Source: a virus
Taxonomy: Duplodnaviria > Caudoviricetes
Length of the DNA: 64,000 nt
Virus record (IMG/VR): IMGVR_UViG_3300025713_000650
Span: 1-64,000 of that record
Strand: one strand, 5' to 3'
Under the pieces are notes generated by a model. The model was not told the DNA's origin and searched no databases. It worked only from the letters and a program-made list of their open reading frames with translations. The translations under genes were made by a program, and so were the position numbers. Positions 32,888-53,687 of the stretch are shown piece by piece (position 1 is the first letter of the stretch; each line of letters begins with the position of its first letter).

Positions 32888-33209
32888 CAAGAAAACCGCT
32901 ATCCCTTTAGGGTAGCGGATGAATTGCCTACCCTATTGGATAATTCGCCTTACGGCGTTATGCGTACTCCGCAACGCTGTTACCACGTTACTTTTCCGAC
33001 ATCATCTCGACAATGATATATAGGCTTTTTACATCCACAACACCGAAGTGTACCCTTAGCTTCTACTTAATTGTGGACAACAGAGCAACGGTCTGATGCG
33101 TCAACCGAGGGTGTTATGACCTAAATATCGTAGCTATGATTTCTCATAGCTTAGTCTGGTGAACTGGCTCAATAGAAGCCCCGACCCTTTAGGGTCGTGG
33201 GTAGTTCAC
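32888..33209 (+). mobile_element. non-autonomous IS200/IS605 derivative (about 320 bp)
   Basis: Left-end hairpin CCGCTATCC CTTTA GGGTAGCGG followed by ATGAATTG; right end GAAGCCCCGACCCTTTAGGGTCGTGGGTAGTTCAC; no transposase. Confidence 0.75.
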
Positions 33210-49297: not shown

Positions 49298-49816
49298 TTA
49301 ATTTTCTATTTTTTTTAAAAATTTTTTCATTATAAATAATGTTTTTATCCAGTTATCAAATTGAATAGCCATATCATCAATATAAGCAACTGCGGGTATT
49401 TTTATGCATGTAATATCATCATAATAAATATTATGTTTCTTTAAATATTTTTCAATATCTATTTTAGATTGTCTTGTTTTTTCTTCATCACCATTATTTG
49501 CTTCTAAACTTAACCTTGCTGTAAAAATAACAATTCTAAAATATTTACTTAAAATATCAATTGCTTTTTTTACACCATTCGTAGGTACATCATAAATAGT
49601 CCCATCATTAAATCCTTTAGAATATTTATGAATGGGACCATCAAAATCAATTAAAATATTTAATTTTCTTTCGGGTTTTTCATTTGATTCTTCTAATTCT
49701 TCTTTTTCCTTTTTATCTGTAATTTCATTGCCTCCTGGAAAACTATCTATTGCAAAAACTGATTCTAATTCACCATTTAATTTTTTTTCTAAAAGTTTAA
49801 ATATTTCTTTTTTCAT
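49298..49816 (-). CDS. HAD-superfamily hydrolase
   Basis: IDFDGPIH, IFTAR, KIPAVAYIDD. Confidence 0.8.
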   Translation of the reverse strand: MKKEIFKLLEKKLNGELESVFAIDSFPGGNEITDKKEKEELEESNEKPERKLNILIDFDGPIHKYSKGFNDGTIYDVPTNGVKKAIDILSKYFRIVIFTARLSLEANNGDEEKTRQSKIDIEKYLKKHNIYYDDITCIKIPAVAYIDDMAIQFDNWIKTLFIMKKFLKKIEN

Positions 49817-49880
49817 TTTGGCTCCTTTGTTTTTTGTTCTAAAATAAGTATATTCTTGACAAAAAAAAATTATTAAATTA

Positions 49881-50003
49881 GAGTGAGAATAGCCATAAGA
49901 TATCCCGATGATATCTCATTTCGCTTCCCCTCACTCACGGGGCGAACATCTCTACGTTTATGAAAGAGGAGGAAATACTAAACGTAGATAGGGCTGGGGC
50001 TTC
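49881..50003 (-). ncRNA. pseudoknotted multi-stem RNA, copy A
   Basis: Three hairpins plus a loop-tail pseudoknot; covaries with copy B; motif A upstream. Confidence 0.7.
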
Positions 50004-50033
50004 TTTAAAAGAGATATTTATCTTATATATTTA

Positions 50034-50054
50034 TTCAAATATTAATATATATAG
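50034..50054 (-). promoter_or_regulatory. promoter-like motif A
   Basis: CTATATATATTAATATTTGAA. Confidence 0.6.
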
Positions 50055-50056
50055 AC

Positions 50057-50986
50057 TCAATTCTTTATAAATGACTGTAAATTATTATAAAAATTTGAAA
50101 TAATATTCCAATTTTTTAATTCAGGAACTTTATTATAATTAATTATATAATAATTAATTTTCTCAATTAGCTCCTTACTTGTATTATAAATATATTCTTT
50201 TGGTAATAATTCAGGATAAGAACATCGGTTAGGAGCTAAAACAATAGTATTATTTAAAATAGCTTCAAGTATACTATAATTAAATGTATCTTCTTTACCT
50301 GTTATCAATAATATTTTACCTTGTGATAGAAATTTATAATATTCTAACCACGAATTATTATTATTATTTCTTTTTATTTTTCCAAATATTTTTTCAACTT
50401 TTTTTTCAACTGATCTTGTTATTTTTTGTTTACAAGGTCTAGCTACAGATATAATATCAAATATTTTTTTTTCATTGAATGATGGATAAGGTGGAATAGG
50501 TAAACCAATAACCTCAATATTTTTCCATCCTAATTTGTTTGCATGATATTCAGATCCAACAAATATTTTATCAAATAATTTTGATTGTCCTGTTTCAACA
50601 AGCCATTTAGATTCTCTATCCATTTCAAAATAATCTAATTTATTTTTTGATGTTCCATGAACATATGCAAACATTTTTCTTGTTTTCTTATGATGTAATA
50701 TATTTGAAAATAATCCAGGGAATGATAAATCATTTAAATATAAATAATCTATGTCTTTTGTATCTAAATCCATAAATTGTTTTATTTGAGAAAGTTCAAA
50801 ATCTATAGCTGAATTTATTGGAGAAAACATCTCATCTGTTTTGTCACTTAAAATATCTTGTTTTAATTCACCTAATGTAATTACATTTTTAAATTTTCTT
50901 TCAAAAAAATTTTTGATACTAGAATAATGCCATTGTTGGTATCTCATTTTTGTTGGAAATTGCGGTACATAAATTATTTTAGACAT
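50057..50986 (-). CDS. glycosyltransferase (GT-B-like)
   Basis: EDTFNYSILEA...LAPNRCSYPE; start MSKIIY after GGAG. Confidence 0.75.
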   Translation of the reverse strand: MSKIIYVPQFPTKMRYQQWHYSSIKNFFERKFKNVITLGELKQDILSDKTDEMFSPINSAIDFELSQIKQFMDLDTKDIDYLYLNDLSFPGLFSNILHHKKTRKMFAYVHGTSKNKLDYFEMDRESKWLVETGQSKLFDKIFVGSEYHANKLGWKNIEVIGLPIPPYPSFNEKKIFDIISVARPCKQKITRSVEKKVEKIFGKIKRNNNNNSWLEYYKFLSQGKILLITGKEDTFNYSILEAILNNTIVLAPNRCSYPELLPKEYIYNTSKELIEKINYYIINYNKVPELKNWNIISNFYNNLQSFIKN

Positions 50987-51018
50987 TTTTTCTCCATTTA
51001 AAAAATTGTAAAGCAAAA

Positions 51019-51125
51019 AAGTGAGAATGTCTGTTTTACATAATTTACGTAAAACATCCACTTACCCTCACTTACGGTGTGGAATATTCTTAATTATAAG
51101 AAATTTACAATTAAGAATACGATCC
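51019..51125 (-). ncRNA. pseudoknotted multi-stem RNA, copy B
   Basis: Same architecture as 49881-50003. Confidence 0.7.
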
Positions 51126-51174
51126 TAAAGTTGTAACAACGCATGAGTACATCAATATTTTTAAATATGTCTAT

Positions 51175-51639
51175 TTAAATTAACCATTTACATCTACCTT
51201 CAAATAAGATAAATGTTTTATCATATTCCCATAGTTTATTCTGTAAAGGATATATTTGATTCAAAAGAAATTCTTTATTATCTGGATTTTTAACCTTATG
51301 AATATATGGGGCTTTCATATTAATTGAATAAAATATTACATTATATCCACTTCTTAAAAATGATTCTCCTATTGCACCAATTTGTCTATGATCTGGATGA
51401 GTTTCATAAACAGGATCAGGAAAATAATAAGTATATTTTTTTTCAAAAGTTGAGAATGAATAATCAAATAATTGATCTTTAATATTAGGCAATAAACTTT
51501 TTAAATTTTTCGCTTCATCTATCCTATTCATATTTTCAGGATGAGTATAATATATTATAAATTCTTCATCTGGGTTACAAATTAATTCAAAACATCCAAT
51601 TATTTCATCATCACAATGGGGAGCATAAATAATATTCAT
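51175..51639 (-). CDS. PIG-L/LmbE family deacetylase
   Basis: APHCDDEIIG and HPDH motifs. Confidence 0.8.
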   Translation of the reverse strand: MNIIYAPHCDDEIIGCFELICNPDEEFIIYYTHPENMNRIDEAKNLKSLLPNIKDQLFDYSFSTFEKKYTYYFPDPVYETHPDHRQIGAIGESFLRSGYNVIFYSINMKAPYIHKVKNPDNKEFLLNQIYPLQNKLWEYDKTFILFEGRCKWLI

Positions 51640-52102: not shown

Positions 52103-53687
52103 CTAAATTACCGAGAAGTCCTCCACTTCTAAGCGTAAGCGAAAGTGGAGGATGAATCGGTTATCCAATTGTTGTTTCTACACGCCAATCGAATTTTTTC
52201 TGTGCTAATTTGCTTATATTTAGATGTTGTTTGTAAATAATTACCTTGTATATCTTGCACATATACCCAATTACCAGTGAATCCCGATATAAAACCAATC
52301 TTATTTATTTCTGGTATATACACTTTATCCCACAAGCACCACTTCTTTTCTTTTACAATTATTTCTTTTGTATTTTTGCTATTTCTTTTTGCTTTCCTAT
52401 TAGGTTCTTTTCTACCTTTACGCGGTATTTCTTCATGTAAACTACGTTTCTTTTTACGTACCTGCTTTATATAATATATATTATCGCTATACTTCATTGG
52501 TTTTATATTTGCAATTACTACTGCATCGTTTATATGCGACTTTTCTATATTCCACTCTTTACGTTTTCTGCGTGTGTATAGTCCAAAAGTATATTGCGTT
52601 GGTGTTATTTCTTGTAGTTTAGGTACAAGATAATCTTTTAGTACATTCATAAATGCCGTTTCCTGAAATTGCTTTATCTTAGGTAGATTTTTACCTGTAA
52701 ATTCTTTGTATTCCATGTTGTCTTTTGCTTTATTATGCGCTTCACAACTACATACTAAATTGCTTGGATTATTGCTACCACCCTTGCTTCTTGGTATAAT
52801 ATGGTCTACTTCAAGAATATCATTGCAAGGTATGTCTGGTCTTAATTTTGCATAATGACAAGTAAAATTATCTCTTATTTTTACATATTCTTTTACGCTA
52901 TCATATCCATACATTTCTCCCTGTTGATATTCTATACCATTAATATCTGGATTAACTAATGCCTGTGTATCAAATTGCCCTATTTCTACTCTTATTCTGC
53001 TTATTGGTAGAATTTTTACAATATCATTTACAAGTCTTATATGAGCATTAATCCTTGATTGTATACTTGGCGGTAACCATCCTTTTTTTCTTTTTCTATT
53101 TAAGAACCTTGCTTTTCTATACCTTGTTTTTCTATTACGTCTTGCATGTCGAAGTCGTCTCCTTGTATGAATATTCTCTTTTATGTCTTGTCTTAATTCT
53201 GCTTCGGCACGATAAAGCACATTACCTTGTTCCGTTGTAACTGCCACACCTATATGTTTGCTTCCTGCGTCAATACCTAATACACATTCTTGTATTTGAT
53301 TTTCACACTCAAATAATAATTGAATTGTAAATGGTTCATATTTTACTATTTTAGCCTTCTTGTTTTTCAGCAATTTTCTTGCCTTAGCAGGCTTGCAAGG
53401 CATTAAAGGCTTACCTTCTATTGAAACTACATATACTAACATTTTGGCTTTACGCCCTCCTTTTTGGAGTTATTTGCCCATCCCCAATGTTGGAATAACT
53501 TTGCAGTATAACTGCCAATTGTGGTTGACCGTTCCTACCCATCAGAACTTTTACAGAGCCACCTTAGAGCCTGAAACTTGGGCATCATTTCAGGGTAAGA
53601 TAATTATTCCAACGTAGTCAGTTAAGACTTAGGGTAGTCAACTAAGGCTTTTACAAGCCTCCGTTTCTATAAACGGGGGTAGTTGAC
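52103..53687 (-). mobile_element. non-autonomous IS200/IS605 element carrying IscB and omegaRNA
   Basis: GTCAACTACCCC end with hairpin; terminal hairpin TCCTCCACTT..AAGTGGAGGA; no tnpA. Confidence 0.85.
52129..53442 (-). CDS. iscB: IscB RNA-guided endonuclease
   Basis: PLMP, RuvC-I GIDAG, Arg-rich bridge helix RRRLRHARRNRKTRYR, RuvC-II E, HNH DHIIP..GG, RuvC-III HINDA. Confidence 0.95.
   Translation of the reverse strand: MLVYVVSIEGKPLMPCKPAKARKLLKNKKAKIVKYEPFTIQLLFECENQIQECVLGIDAGSKHIGVAVTTEQGNVLYRAEAELRQDIKENIHTRRRLRHARRNRKTRYRKARFLNRKRKKGWLPPSIQSRINAHIRLVNDIVKILPISRIRVEIGQFDTQALVNPDINGIEYQQGEMYGYDSVKEYVKIRDNFTCHYAKLRPDIPCNDILEVDHIIPRSKGGSNNPSNLVCSCEAHNKAKDNMEYKEFTGKNLPKIKQFQETAFMNVLKDYLVPKLQEITPTQYTFGLYTRRKRKEWNIEKSHINDAVVIANIKPMKYSDNIYYIKQVRKKKRSLHEEIPRKGRKEPNRKAKRNSKNTKEIIVKEKKWCLWDKVYIPEINKIGFISGFTGNWVYVQDIQGNYLQTTSKYKQISTEKIRLACRNNNWITDSSSTFAYA

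What the first reader, a model, noticed from the sequence alone, without database searches (positions are those of the whole stretch)
49881..51125. Two copies of an unrecognised pseudoknotted RNA motif with compensatory base changes
Seen on the minus strand. Copy A (49881-50003) has TTCGC-CCC-[GTGAGTGAG]-GGG-AA-GCGAA with tail ATTCTCACTC. Copy B (51019-51125) has TCCAC-ACC-[GTAAGTGAG]-GGT-AA-GTGGA with tail ATTCTCACTT. Both have a 5-bp stem, an AA bulge, a 3-bp stem and a 9-nt loop, with different but still-pairing stem sequences. The loop pairs 7 bp with the 3' tail, with a compensatory G-C to A-U change. In both, this core is flanked by two long hairpins of unrelated sequence, G-U pairs fit the minus strand, and T-rich sequence follows. 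Copy A has its own motif-A promoter. The two copies flank the glycosyltransferase gene. I cannot match it to a riboswitch or ribozyme I know. Inference: a structured ncRNA family (ribozyme, riboswitch, nuclease-blocking element or protein decoy).
Basis: seen in the sequence. Interest (0 to 1): 0.8.

Follow-up and report, generated by a model that had tools for sequence, protein, structure and literature searches.

The report
New pseudoknot RNA flanking phage glycosyltransferase
Two copies of a previously uncatalogued, about 110-base folded RNA (three hairpins locked by a pseudoknot) sit on either side of a sugar-transfer gene in an uncultured giant wastewater phage. The fold is conserved through compensating mutations, one copy shows up as a short RNA in RNA-sequencing data, and its function (most likely control of read-through into the sugar genes) is still untested.

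Summary
On the minus strand, copy A (49881-49990) and copy B (51019-51120) share one architecture. It runs: hairpin 1, a 5-bp plus 3-bp stem with an AA bulge, a 9-nt loop, hairpin 2, a 6-8 nt spacer, a tail that pairs 7 bp with the loop, then a U-rich tract.

A related metagenomic phage (glycosyltransferase 83% identical) carries the same pair at the same two positions. Across the four sequences all 25 modelled pairs are standard, and 14 of them show changes on both sides. Two natural variants keep pairing only through G-U, which fits RNA of this strand.

Four Rfam searches found no family. Scans of three large DNA collections found only these two phage lineages, with two copies each.

Copy A follows a promoter-like motif that recurs eight times in the window. 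In two runs labelled RNA-seq, both from one study, copy A is the only part of the 2-kb stretch covered by perfect contigs.

The neighbouring genes are sugar-related. My best reading, at about 40%, is a cis-acting attenuating leader whose conserved pseudoknot core binds a metabolite or a protein. A stable small RNA, a nuclease block and a ribozyme remain open. This is a real, new and narrowly distributed RNA family.

The parts
49881..49990 (-). Copy A, whole folded element (hairpin 1 through pseudoknot 3' strand)
   Evidence: Sequence. Model hits of 102 and 79 bits. Pair counts.
49949..49990 (-). Copy A hairpin 1, about 10 bp, with a CU-rich 20-nt loop (UUUCCUCCUCUUUC)
   Evidence: Folds. The loop is conserved in the orthologue (L014:2459-2497) although the stem sequence differs.
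49920..49946 (-). Copy A core hairpin: 5-bp stem, 3-bp stem, 9-nt loop (49938-49930) and AA bulge (49926-49925)
   Evidence: In one search, helix 1 is 100% paired and 4 of its 8 pairs are compensatory.
49895..49919 (-). Copy A hairpin 2 (10 bp, 5-nt loop)
   Evidence: 9 of its 10 pairs are compensatory across the four sequences.
49881..49887 (-). Copy A pseudoknot 3' strand CUCACUC, which pairs with 49936-49930. It is preceded by spacer GGCU and AUU (49894-49888).
   Evidence: In one search, helix 2 has 7 pairs, is 100% paired, and has 1 compensatory pair. It was not part of the model used to align the sequences.
49861..49880 (-). U-rich tract after copy A (UAAUUUAAUAAUUUUUUUUU)
   Evidence: The RNA-run insert ends at 49877.
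50034..50051 (-). Promoter-like motif TATATATTAATATTTGAA upstream of copy A
   Evidence: It recurs eight times in the window in front of genes and of the tRNA array. It is identical in L014.
49819..50012 (-). Region covered by perfect contigs of two runs labelled RNA-seq (X19: 49819-49997; X20: 49877-50012 between adapter sequences)
   Evidence: tables 7 and 8. The strand is inferred from the promoter and the fold; the contigs do not show it.
51019..51120 (-). Copy B, whole folded element
   Evidence: Model hits of 41 and 78 bits.
51084..51120 (-). Copy B hairpin 1 (12 bp, 13-nt loop), directly abutting the core
51057..51083 (-). Copy B core hairpin (UCCAC-ACC-loop-GGU-AA-GUGGA)
51032..51056 (-). 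Copy B hairpin 2. The natural variant at 51048 turns a G-U pair into A-U.
   Evidence: run X13
51015..51025 (-). Copy B pseudoknot 3' strand CUCACUU (51025-51019), running straight into a U tract
50057..50986 (-). Glycosyltransferase gene (309 aa) lying between the two copies
   Evidence: Weak Pfam Glyco_trans_1_2 hit. 401 homologues, some named glycosyltransferase by their source.
49298..49816 (-). Gene downstream of copy A: 172 aa, matching the PHROG family labelled phosphoheptose isomerase
   Evidence: phrog_1238, E 2e-12
51175..51639 (-). Gene upstream of copy B: 154 aa, with a weak N-terminal PIG-L deacetylase-like match
   Evidence: below the Pfam cut-off

Best explanation
The two elements are paralogous copies of a lineage-specific structured RNA, transcribed with the surrounding minus-strand genes. 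Each folds into hairpin 1, a bulged core hairpin and hairpin 2. The 3' tail pairs with the core loop to give an H-type pseudoknot with an embedded hairpin (the HLout topology). This much is shown by sequence and covariation.

What follows is inferred. The element acts in cis as an attenuating leader within a small sugar-modification gene cluster. The pseudoknot helix ends at a U-rich tract, so when it forms it behaves like a terminator stem and stops part of the transcripts. Copy B would then gate read-through into the glycosyltransferase gene. Copy A would gate read-through from its own promoter into the downstream kinase/methyltransferase and phosphatase-like genes, leaving a stable short RNA of about 136-190 nt.

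The pseudoknot, the 3-bp stem, the GU linker, the AA bulge and the AU before the tail are nearly invariant, while all other stems drift. That pattern suggests the core is a binding site for a metabolite or a phage or host protein that sets how much read-through occurs.
For: Fold. All 100 cells of 25 pairs are standard pairs across the four sequences. 14 pairs have changes on both sides, and no shuffled or slid control comes near. Hairpin 1 is also kept with unrelated sequence in all four. Two natural variants keep pairing through G-U: 51048 in run X13 and the first pair of hairpin 2 in G002.

Geometry. The 2-nt linker, the zero-nucleotide junction and the 6-8 nt spacer are the lengths an H-type pseudoknot over an 8-bp stem needs. 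This is read from the sequences and interpreted from general knowledge of pseudoknots.

Cis role. There are only two copies in the 64-kb window and only two in a 136-kb contig of the sister lineage. Both lie within 1.2 kb, in a cluster of sugar-related genes.

Copy B in L014 starts 16 nt after the upstream stop codon and ends about 30 nt before the glycosyltransferase ribosome-binding site. That leaves no room for a copy of the recurring promoter motif, so the glycosyltransferase must be reached by read-through.

A U-rich tract follows all four copies at 0-10 nt. The nested alternative fold is a 9-10 bp stem plus hairpin 2 followed by U6-U8.

Other uses of the same promoter motif have leaders of only 15-30 nt, whereas copy A adds about 215 nt.

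In two runs labelled RNA-seq, the only perfect contigs on 49500-51500 cover copy A. One ends 4 nt after the pseudoknot. The other reads through to 49819, as expected for partial termination.
Against: No ligand, protein or termination event has been shown.

The U tract of copy A is interrupted and starts only loosely after the pseudoknot, so it is a poor canonical terminator.

The phage lineage encodes its own multisubunit RNA polymerases, and I do not know what termination signals they obey.

The core stem and the pseudoknot overlap by only two G residues, so no clear mutually exclusive switch is visible. The candidate anti-terminator pairings I found are not in a conserved register.

The two RNA runs come from one study, are labelled RNA only by their record, and are held as contigs. 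Contigs cannot prove ends, strand or abundance.

The covariation rests on four sequences from two lineages, and helices 1 and 3 were aligned with a model that contained them.
Confidence: 0.4

Rival explanations
1. Stable trans-acting small RNA or decoy. Copy A is a small-RNA gene with its own promoter, and copy B is a second copy released from the mRNA. The RNA would titrate a protein, or pair with ribosome-binding sites through the CU-rich loop of hairpin 1.
For: Copy A has a promoter directly in front of it and a U-rich end behind it. The RNA-run contigs cover only copy A, and one is a 136-nt insert bounded by adapters. The hairpin-1 loop UUUCCUCCUCUUUC is kept in the orthologue although its stem is entirely different. 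That loop is complementary to the GGAG-type ribosome-binding sites common in this phage.
Against: Copy B and its orthologue lack the CU-rich loop and have no copy of the recurring promoter motif upstream of them. One RNA contig reads on to the next gene's start. In the folded state the conserved core is almost fully base-paired, leaving little for trans pairing. Both copies are tied to one gene cluster.
Confidence: 0.25
2. Nuclease-blocking or processing element. The knotted fold would stop exoribonucleases, or mark a cleavage site. The result would be a different stability for the glycosyltransferase message than for its neighbours, much as class 3 exoribonuclease-resistant RNAs of plant viruses work.
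For: The topology is the same as that described for class 3 xrRNA: two coaxial helices whose apical loop pairs with 3' sequence (PMC11702639). The copies flank one gene. The RNA insert ends 4 nt after the pseudoknot, as if 3' trimming stopped there. Earlier notes of this scan report small pseudoknots of this general kind in many phages; I treated these as untested leads.
Against: No sequence or model match to any catalogued xrRNA. The RNA insert begins about 60 nt upstream of the core stem, not at its base as a 5'-to-3' block would predict. Only two copies per genome is few for a general stability device. The host and its nucleases are unknown.
Confidence: 0.15
3. A pair of self-cleaving ribozymes that cut the glycosyltransferase message out of a longer transcript.
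For: A conserved core with a pseudoknot, two copies bracketing one gene, and discrete RNA ends near copy A.
Against: No hit to any ribozyme family in Rfam, even at E up to 10. By my own reading of the published consensus structures, the order of strands does not fit the HDV-like, pistol, twister, hatchet or hammerhead topologies. Only about six conserved unpaired nucleotides are available for an active site.
Confidence: 0.05
4. No special RNA function. The copies would be ordinary terminator or hairpin clusters, or DNA-level repeats marking the ends of a mobile glycosyltransferase cassette.
For: The nested alternative fold of copy B and its orthologue is a long imperfect hairpin followed by U6-U8. 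The direct repeats flank a single gene.
Against: The 5-bp and 3-bp stems covary, which a plain terminator does not need. An ordinary terminator in this phage is a simple hairpin plus T run (55640-55611). The G-U pairs and the much weaker opposite-strand scores argue for RNA. Relatives with the glycosyltransferase at 51-57% identity carry the gene without the elements, so the gene is not a cassette defined by them. The flanks of the two copies are unrelated.
Confidence: 0.05

Closest known systems
preQ1-II and preQ1-III riboswitches (HLout-type pseudoknots with an embedded hairpin)
   Same: Same strand order: a stem-loop whose loop pairs with a 3' tail, with a hairpin inserted between stem and tail. 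Small size and a 5'-leader position. I make this comparison from my own knowledge of those structures.
   Different: No Rfam match. Here the tail is not a Shine-Dalgarno sequence; it runs into a U tract instead. The downstream genes are sugar enzymes, not queuosine transporters or synthesis genes. No ligand is known.
wcaG and manA RNA motifs of T4-like cyanophages (Weinberg et al. 2010, PMC2864571)
   Same: Orphan, pseudoknot-bearing candidate cis-regulators carried by large phages in front of sugar or exopolysaccharide genes.
   Different: No model match to RF01761 or RF01745 at E up to 10. Different habitat (wastewater, digesters, landfill) and different consensus.
Class 3 exoribonuclease-resistant RNAs of plant viruses (PMC11702639)
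   Same: Two coaxially stacked helices whose apical loop pairs with downstream sequence.
   Different: The element here has a 25-nt hairpin in the linker, an extra 5' hairpin and a U tract. It has no sequence similarity to these RNAs, and the observed RNA 5' end does not lie at the base of the stem.
EAR / epsC RNA of Bacillus (processive antitermination within the eps operon)
   Same: A multi-hairpin, pseudoknotted RNA lying between genes of a polysaccharide cluster. The epsC motif and its pseudoknot are mentioned in PMC2864571; its antitermination function is from my own knowledge.
   Different: No match to the epsC model. Different size and consensus. Here a U tract follows directly, which points towards termination and away from antitermination.

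Membership tests
Any Rfam 15 family (4227 models, including riboswitches, ribozymes, xrRNAs, C4, Y RNA, tmRNA) | Covariance-model score at or above the family's gathering threshold | tested here: not met
   There was no hit on either copy at gathering score. At E up to 10 only scattered snoRNA, miRNA and sRNA noise appeared, and it differed between orthologues.
preQ1-II/III type HLout pseudoknot riboswitch | Stem-loop whose loop pairs with the 3' tail, with a hairpin embedded in the connecting loop | tested here: met
   Strand order read. All three helices are 100% paired.
preQ1-II/III type HLout pseudoknot riboswitch | Pseudoknot 3' strand contains the ribosome-binding site, and the element is linked to queuosine-related genes | tested here: not met
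   The tail is AUUCUCACUY. The ribosome-binding sites lie 25-60 nt further on. The adjacent genes are a glycosyltransferase and sugar enzymes.
wcaG / manA phage RNA motifs | Match to RF01761 or RF01745 | tested here: not met
Intrinsic (factor-independent) terminator | Stable helix ending 0-2 nt before a run of U | tested here: inconclusive
   Met for copy B and both L014 copies if the pseudoknot or nested long helix counts as the stem. For copy A the U-rich tract is interrupted. The consensus scan did not call either copy.
Class 3 xrRNA | Blocks a 5'-to-3' exonuclease, leaving RNAs whose 5' end lies at the base of the first helix | not testable with these tools
   The only hint is the RNA-run insert, which starts at 50012, about 60 nt upstream of the core stem. 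That does not fit, but contigs cannot prove ends.
Self-cleaving ribozymes (hammerhead, twister, twister-sister, pistol, hatchet, HDV-like) | Family consensus core and strand topology | tested here: not met
   No Rfam hits. The strand order differs on inspection against topologies recalled from the literature.
Pseudoknot RNA of phage tRNA islands noted earlier in this scan (e1-5367724) | Presence in Listeria phage A511 and Vibrio phage KVP40 | tested here: not met
   Model R2 found nothing in either complete genome at E up to 10. I did not have that family's own consensus, so a very distant relation is not excluded.

The most novel reading that the evidence does not exclude
The element is a new riboswitch class. 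Its pseudoknot core would be an aptamer for a metabolite of the phage's sugar or DNA-modification pathway, such as a nucleotide sugar or a modified-base precursor. Ligand-stabilised pseudoknot formation would terminate transcription by the phage's own multisubunit RNA polymerase ahead of the glycosyltransferase and its partner genes.
Probability: 0.15. Interest if true: 0.8.

Novelty: new variant of a known kind. Interest (0 to 1): 0.55.

Why it matters
Large phages that bring their own RNA polymerases are thought to regulate genes mainly through promoter classes. Very few cis-acting RNA regulators are known in them. This is a compact RNA supported by covariation and possibly expressed. It has an invariant pseudoknot core and is confined to a cluster of sugar-modifying genes. 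If it senses a metabolite or a protein, it would give a handle on how such phages time or dose glycosylation, of DNA or of the cell surface. It would also add a new small pseudoknot aptamer or terminator design. Even if it is only a stability element, it is a clean and easily testable 66-nt core.

Tried and rejected
Rfam. One search of the whole window at gathering score and three permissive searches on the copies and their orthologues gave nothing consistent.

Cultured phages. A blastn search of the 3.2-kb region against 50,697 phage records found no match.

Own genome. It is not held. The nearest record, G001, is a 17.9-kb fragment without the motif.

Pattern scans. Scans of IMG/VR, JGI metagenomes and GTDB genomes returned only the two known lineages plus chance hits: L002, L003, L005, L020, L021, L024 and L033-L042 (checked).
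- L039 and L037 looked similar at first. They are a plain 9-bp inverted repeat at a phage genome end, with no bulged stem or hairpin 2.

Relatives. Contexts of glycosyltransferase homologues at 51-57% identity (L016-L019, L028-L030) and of 172-aa protein homologues (L008-L013, whole records) gave no hit with R1 or R2. DNA for P0003 and P0006 could not be obtained.

Descriptor scan. My own scan for the bare topology over 300 kb of held sequence drowned in AT-rich false positives. It gave no credible variant.

A511 and KVP40. No match with R2.

Small ORF. A small ORF starting at hairpin 2 and reading through the tail exists in three copies. The L014 upstream copy lacks any start codon, so I rejected it.

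Weak model hits. The R1 hit at 52122-52183 (+), E 0.05, was not found by R2 and I treat it as chance.

RNA runs. No listed holder is firmly on record as RNA. Runs X19 and X20 are labelled RNA-seq only by their library record. Copy B and the coding regions were not covered by perfect contigs in them.

Literature. Searches for a matching phage pseudoknot RNA turned up nothing specific.
Full report
**What is there**

Read on the minus strand, the two intergenic regions on either side of the 309-codon glycosyltransferase gene (50986-50057) hold elements with one architecture. In 5'-to-3' order:
- hairpin 1 of 10-12 bp (A 49990-49949, B 51120-51084);
- 0-2 nt;
- a 5-bp stem and a 3-bp stem enclosing a 9-nt loop, with an AA bulge on the 3' side (A 49946-49920, B 51083-51057);
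- hairpin 2 of exactly 25 nt (A 49919-49895, B 51056-51032);
- a spacer that begins with G (GGCU in A, GAC in B), then AUU;
- seven nucleotides complementary to loop positions 3-9 (A 49887-49881, B 51025-51019);
- a U-rich tract.

**Is it more than chance?**

A covariance model built from copy A alone (R1) finds copy B at 41 bits, E about 1e-10. It finds nothing else of note in the 64-kb window. The 13-nt core occurs exactly twice. The reverse strand scores only 10-17 bits.

**Independent support from a second lineage**

The glycosyltransferase has hundreds of metagenomic homologues. Its closest relative, at 83% identity, lies on contig L014. L014 carries the same two elements at the same two positions, at 1328-1387 and 2500-2569. 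A 136-kb contig of that lineage, binned into a Hyphomicrobiales MAG, has exactly these two copies and no others.

I aligned the four distinct sequences to the model (A5; rows) and counted pairs for the full structure with the pseudoknot added.
- All 100 cells of 25 pairs are standard pairs.
- 14 pairs carry changes on both sides.
- No shuffled control (0 of 500) and no slid control (32-55% paired) comes near.
- The 5-bp stem changes at three pairs and the 3-bp stem at one.
- Hairpin 2 changes at nine of its ten pairs.
- The pseudoknot changes at one pair. It was not part of the model that made the alignment.

Hairpin 1 is also present with unrelated sequence in all four.

Two natural variants keep pairing through G-U, which works only for RNA or single strands of this sense. 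A G-U pair becomes A-U at 51048 in run X13. The first pair of hairpin 2 changes from A-U to G-U in G002.

The caveats are that there are only four sequences from two lineages, and that helices 1 and 3 were aligned by a model that contains them.

**Geometry**

The strand order is that of an H-type pseudoknot with a hairpin embedded in the third loop (HLout). The loop lengths are:
- a 2-nt GU linker across a 7-bp helix;
- no nucleotide between the pseudoknot 5' strand and the 3-bp stem;
- 6-8 nt between hairpin 2 and the pseudoknot 3' strand, to run along the 8-bp bulged stem.

These are lengths such a fold can accommodate; this is my reading from general pseudoknot knowledge. Energies from ViennaRNA support the idea. 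The nested fold that contains the core hairpin (-24 to -34 kcal/mol) plus a 7-bp duplex (-7 to -9 kcal/mol) is comparable to the best nested alternative. In that alternative the loop plus two G residues pair 9-10 bp with the tail around hairpin 2 (-32 to -39 kcal/mol).

**Conservation pattern**

All stems except the pseudoknot and the 3-bp stem drift freely. The pseudoknot, the CC/GG of the 3-bp stem, the GU linker, the AA bulge, the first G of the spacer and the AU before the tail are invariant or nearly so, both between paralogues and between orthologues. A helix that is needed only for its shape would be expected to drift like the others. The pattern therefore points to sequence-specific recognition or tertiary contacts.

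**Not a catalogued family**

Rfam 15 gives no hit at gathering score on the window. It also gives none at E up to 10 on the 1.6-kb region, on copy A alone, or on the L014 orthologues. Those searches returned only unrelated, inconsistent noise. The window does contain two HEARO RNAs and ten tRNAs, so the search itself worked.

**Distribution**

Pattern scans of IMG/VR, JGI metagenomes and one genome per GTDB species returned only the two lineages. The remaining hits were chance, as shown by the model and by reading them.

Phages with the glycosyltransferase at 51-57% identity keep the gene and parts of the synteny but lack the element within 6-10 kb. So do relatives found through the downstream 172-aa protein.

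The family is therefore young or fast-evolving, and narrow. The window's phage type occurs in activated sludge, anaerobic digesters, landfill, wastewater and groundwater samples from a dozen studies.

**Genomic setting**

The phage is AT-rich, about 25% G+C. It has T4-type baseplate genes, ThyX, PTH2, IscB with HEARO RNA, and a tRNA array. The sister lineage's 136-kb contig carries two beta-prime-like genes.

The genes around the elements are sugar-related:
- a protein with a weak PIG-L-like match upstream of copy B;
- the glycosyltransferase itself;
- downstream of copy A, a 172-aa protein matching the PHROG family labelled phosphoheptose isomerase;
- in L014, an extra 394-aa protein between copy A and that 172-aa homologue, with weak kinase and methyltransferase matches.

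**Transcription signals**

The 18-nt motif TATATATTAAT..TGAA recurs eight times in the window. It usually lies 15-30 nt before a ribosome-binding site and once lies before the tRNA array. One copy, identical in L014, sits at 50051-50034, between the glycosyltransferase stop codon and copy A. Copy A thus lies in an unusually long leader of about 215 nt.

Copy B has no such motif. In L014 it starts 16 nt after the upstream stop codon and ends about 30 nt before the glycosyltransferase ribosome-binding site. The glycosyltransferase must therefore be transcribed through it.

An ordinary terminator of this phage is a plain hairpin plus T run, for example 55640-55611.

**RNA evidence (weak but pointed)**

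Two wastewater runs from one study are labelled RNA-seq. Within the 2-kb stretch laid, they contain perfect contigs only over copy A.
- In X19, a 180-nt contig covers 49819-49997.
- In X20, a 165-nt contig consists of adapter sequence, then 49877-50012, then adapter sequence.

That is a 136-nt insert. It starts 22 nt after the promoter-like motif and ends 4 nt after the pseudoknot. DNA runs cover the stretch evenly.

This fits an abundant, discrete RNA from the copy-A promoter with partial read-through. There are limits. Contigs cannot prove ends, strand or level. The two runs are not independent. Their RNA label comes only from the record.

**Interpretation**

Four points are best explained together by a cis-acting leader that attenuates transcription into the sugar genes:
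- only two copies per genome, both within one small functional cluster;
- each copy lies directly upstream of a gene that must be reached by read-through;
- each ends in a U-rich tract;
- each has an invariant core.

In this reading the pseudoknot helix serves as the terminator stem, and the conserved core is the binding site of a metabolite or a protein. I put this at about 0.4.

It is weakened by four things: the poor U tract of copy A, the lack of a clear mutually exclusive alternative fold, the unknown termination rules of the phage's own polymerases, and the complete absence of functional data.

**Rivals**

1. Stable trans-acting RNA or decoy (0.25). The copy-A promoter, the RNA contigs and the CU-rich hairpin-1 loop favour it. 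That loop is conserved although its stem is not, and it is complementary to GGAG-type ribosome-binding sites. Copy B, which lacks both features, argues against it.
2. Nuclease block or processing signal (0.15). The two-dimensional topology matches class 3 exoribonuclease-resistant RNAs. However, the observed 5' end is in the wrong place, and no sequence relation exists.
3. Self-cleaving ribozyme pair (0.05). No family or topology fits.
4. Plain terminators or DNA repeats of a mobile cassette (0.05). The covarying core stems, the G-U pairs, the strand specificity and the relatives that have the gene without the elements all contradict this.

**Earlier notes of this scan**

The same stretch had been flagged before, from an overlapping window. 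Notes on other genomes describe several uncatalogued phage pseudoknot RNAs. One is said to occur in phages A511 and KVP40. I tested this, and model R2 finds nothing in either genome. I found no evidence that the present family is the same as any of those.

**Verdict**

This is a real, new and narrowly distributed structured-RNA family with good comparative support for its size, and a hint of expression. Its function is unproven. The most likely role is a cis-regulatory attenuator of a phage sugar-modification cluster.

Noticed in passing
window 53469-53687 (-) with ORF 52129-53442 (-); window 32998-33209 (-): Two full-length HEARO RNAs (141 and 123 bits). The first lies directly upstream of a 437-aa IscB-type protein (RRXRR plus HNH domains). 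In L014 this insertion between PTH2 and the copy-B gene is absent, and an RNA-ligase gene lies there instead.
   Followed up: partly
window 17840, 18087, 22688, 35218, 38586, 41651, 50051, 61498 (motif starts): A promoter-like motif cTATATATATTAATTAGTGAA recurs eight times, mostly 15-30 nt before a ribosome-binding site. It is probably a promoter class of the phage's own RNA polymerase.
   Followed up: partly
window 35200-35166 (-): Between one such promoter motif and the first tRNA of the array lies a small hairpin plus U7 (AAUACUCUAAGAGAGUAUUCUUUUUUU). This is a second case of a promoter followed directly by a terminator-like signal.
   Followed up: no
window 49979-49960 (-) and L014:2468-2486 (+): The loop of hairpin 1 in the A-type copies is CU-rich and anti-Shine-Dalgarno-like (UUUCCUCCUCUUUC). 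It is conserved between lineages although the stem sequences differ. DNA variants carry a 2-nt insertion in this loop (L004).
   Followed up: partly
L028:192-1829 (+): A related phage (glycosyltransferase 57% identical) encodes a 545-aa Ro60/TROVE plus vWA protein. I did not look for a partner Y-like RNA.
   Followed up: no
G002:C5 (CAYYIP010000005.1, 136 kb): A contig binned into a Hyphomicrobiales MAG is a large phage contig of the sister lineage, with two beta-prime-like genes, tRNAs and both RNA copies. It is probably a binning error.
   Followed up: partly
L014:2674-3858 (+): The sister lineage has an extra 394-aa gene between copy A and the 171-aa gene. It has weak matches to kinase families (Pkinase, APH, Kdo/WaaP) and to methyltransferase domains.
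   Followed up: no
window 41633-41560 (-): Another promoter-motif copy is followed by a leader with a long-range stem (ACGGUUU ... AAACCGU) just before the ribosome-binding site. This may be a second structured leader.
   Followed up: no
L039:10570-10632 (+) and L037:90-152 (-): An unrelated, higher-GC phage has GUGAGUGAGGG ... CCCUCACUC as a plain inverted repeat next to its genome end; adapter sequence follows in L037. The resemblance to the motif is by chance.
   Followed up: yes
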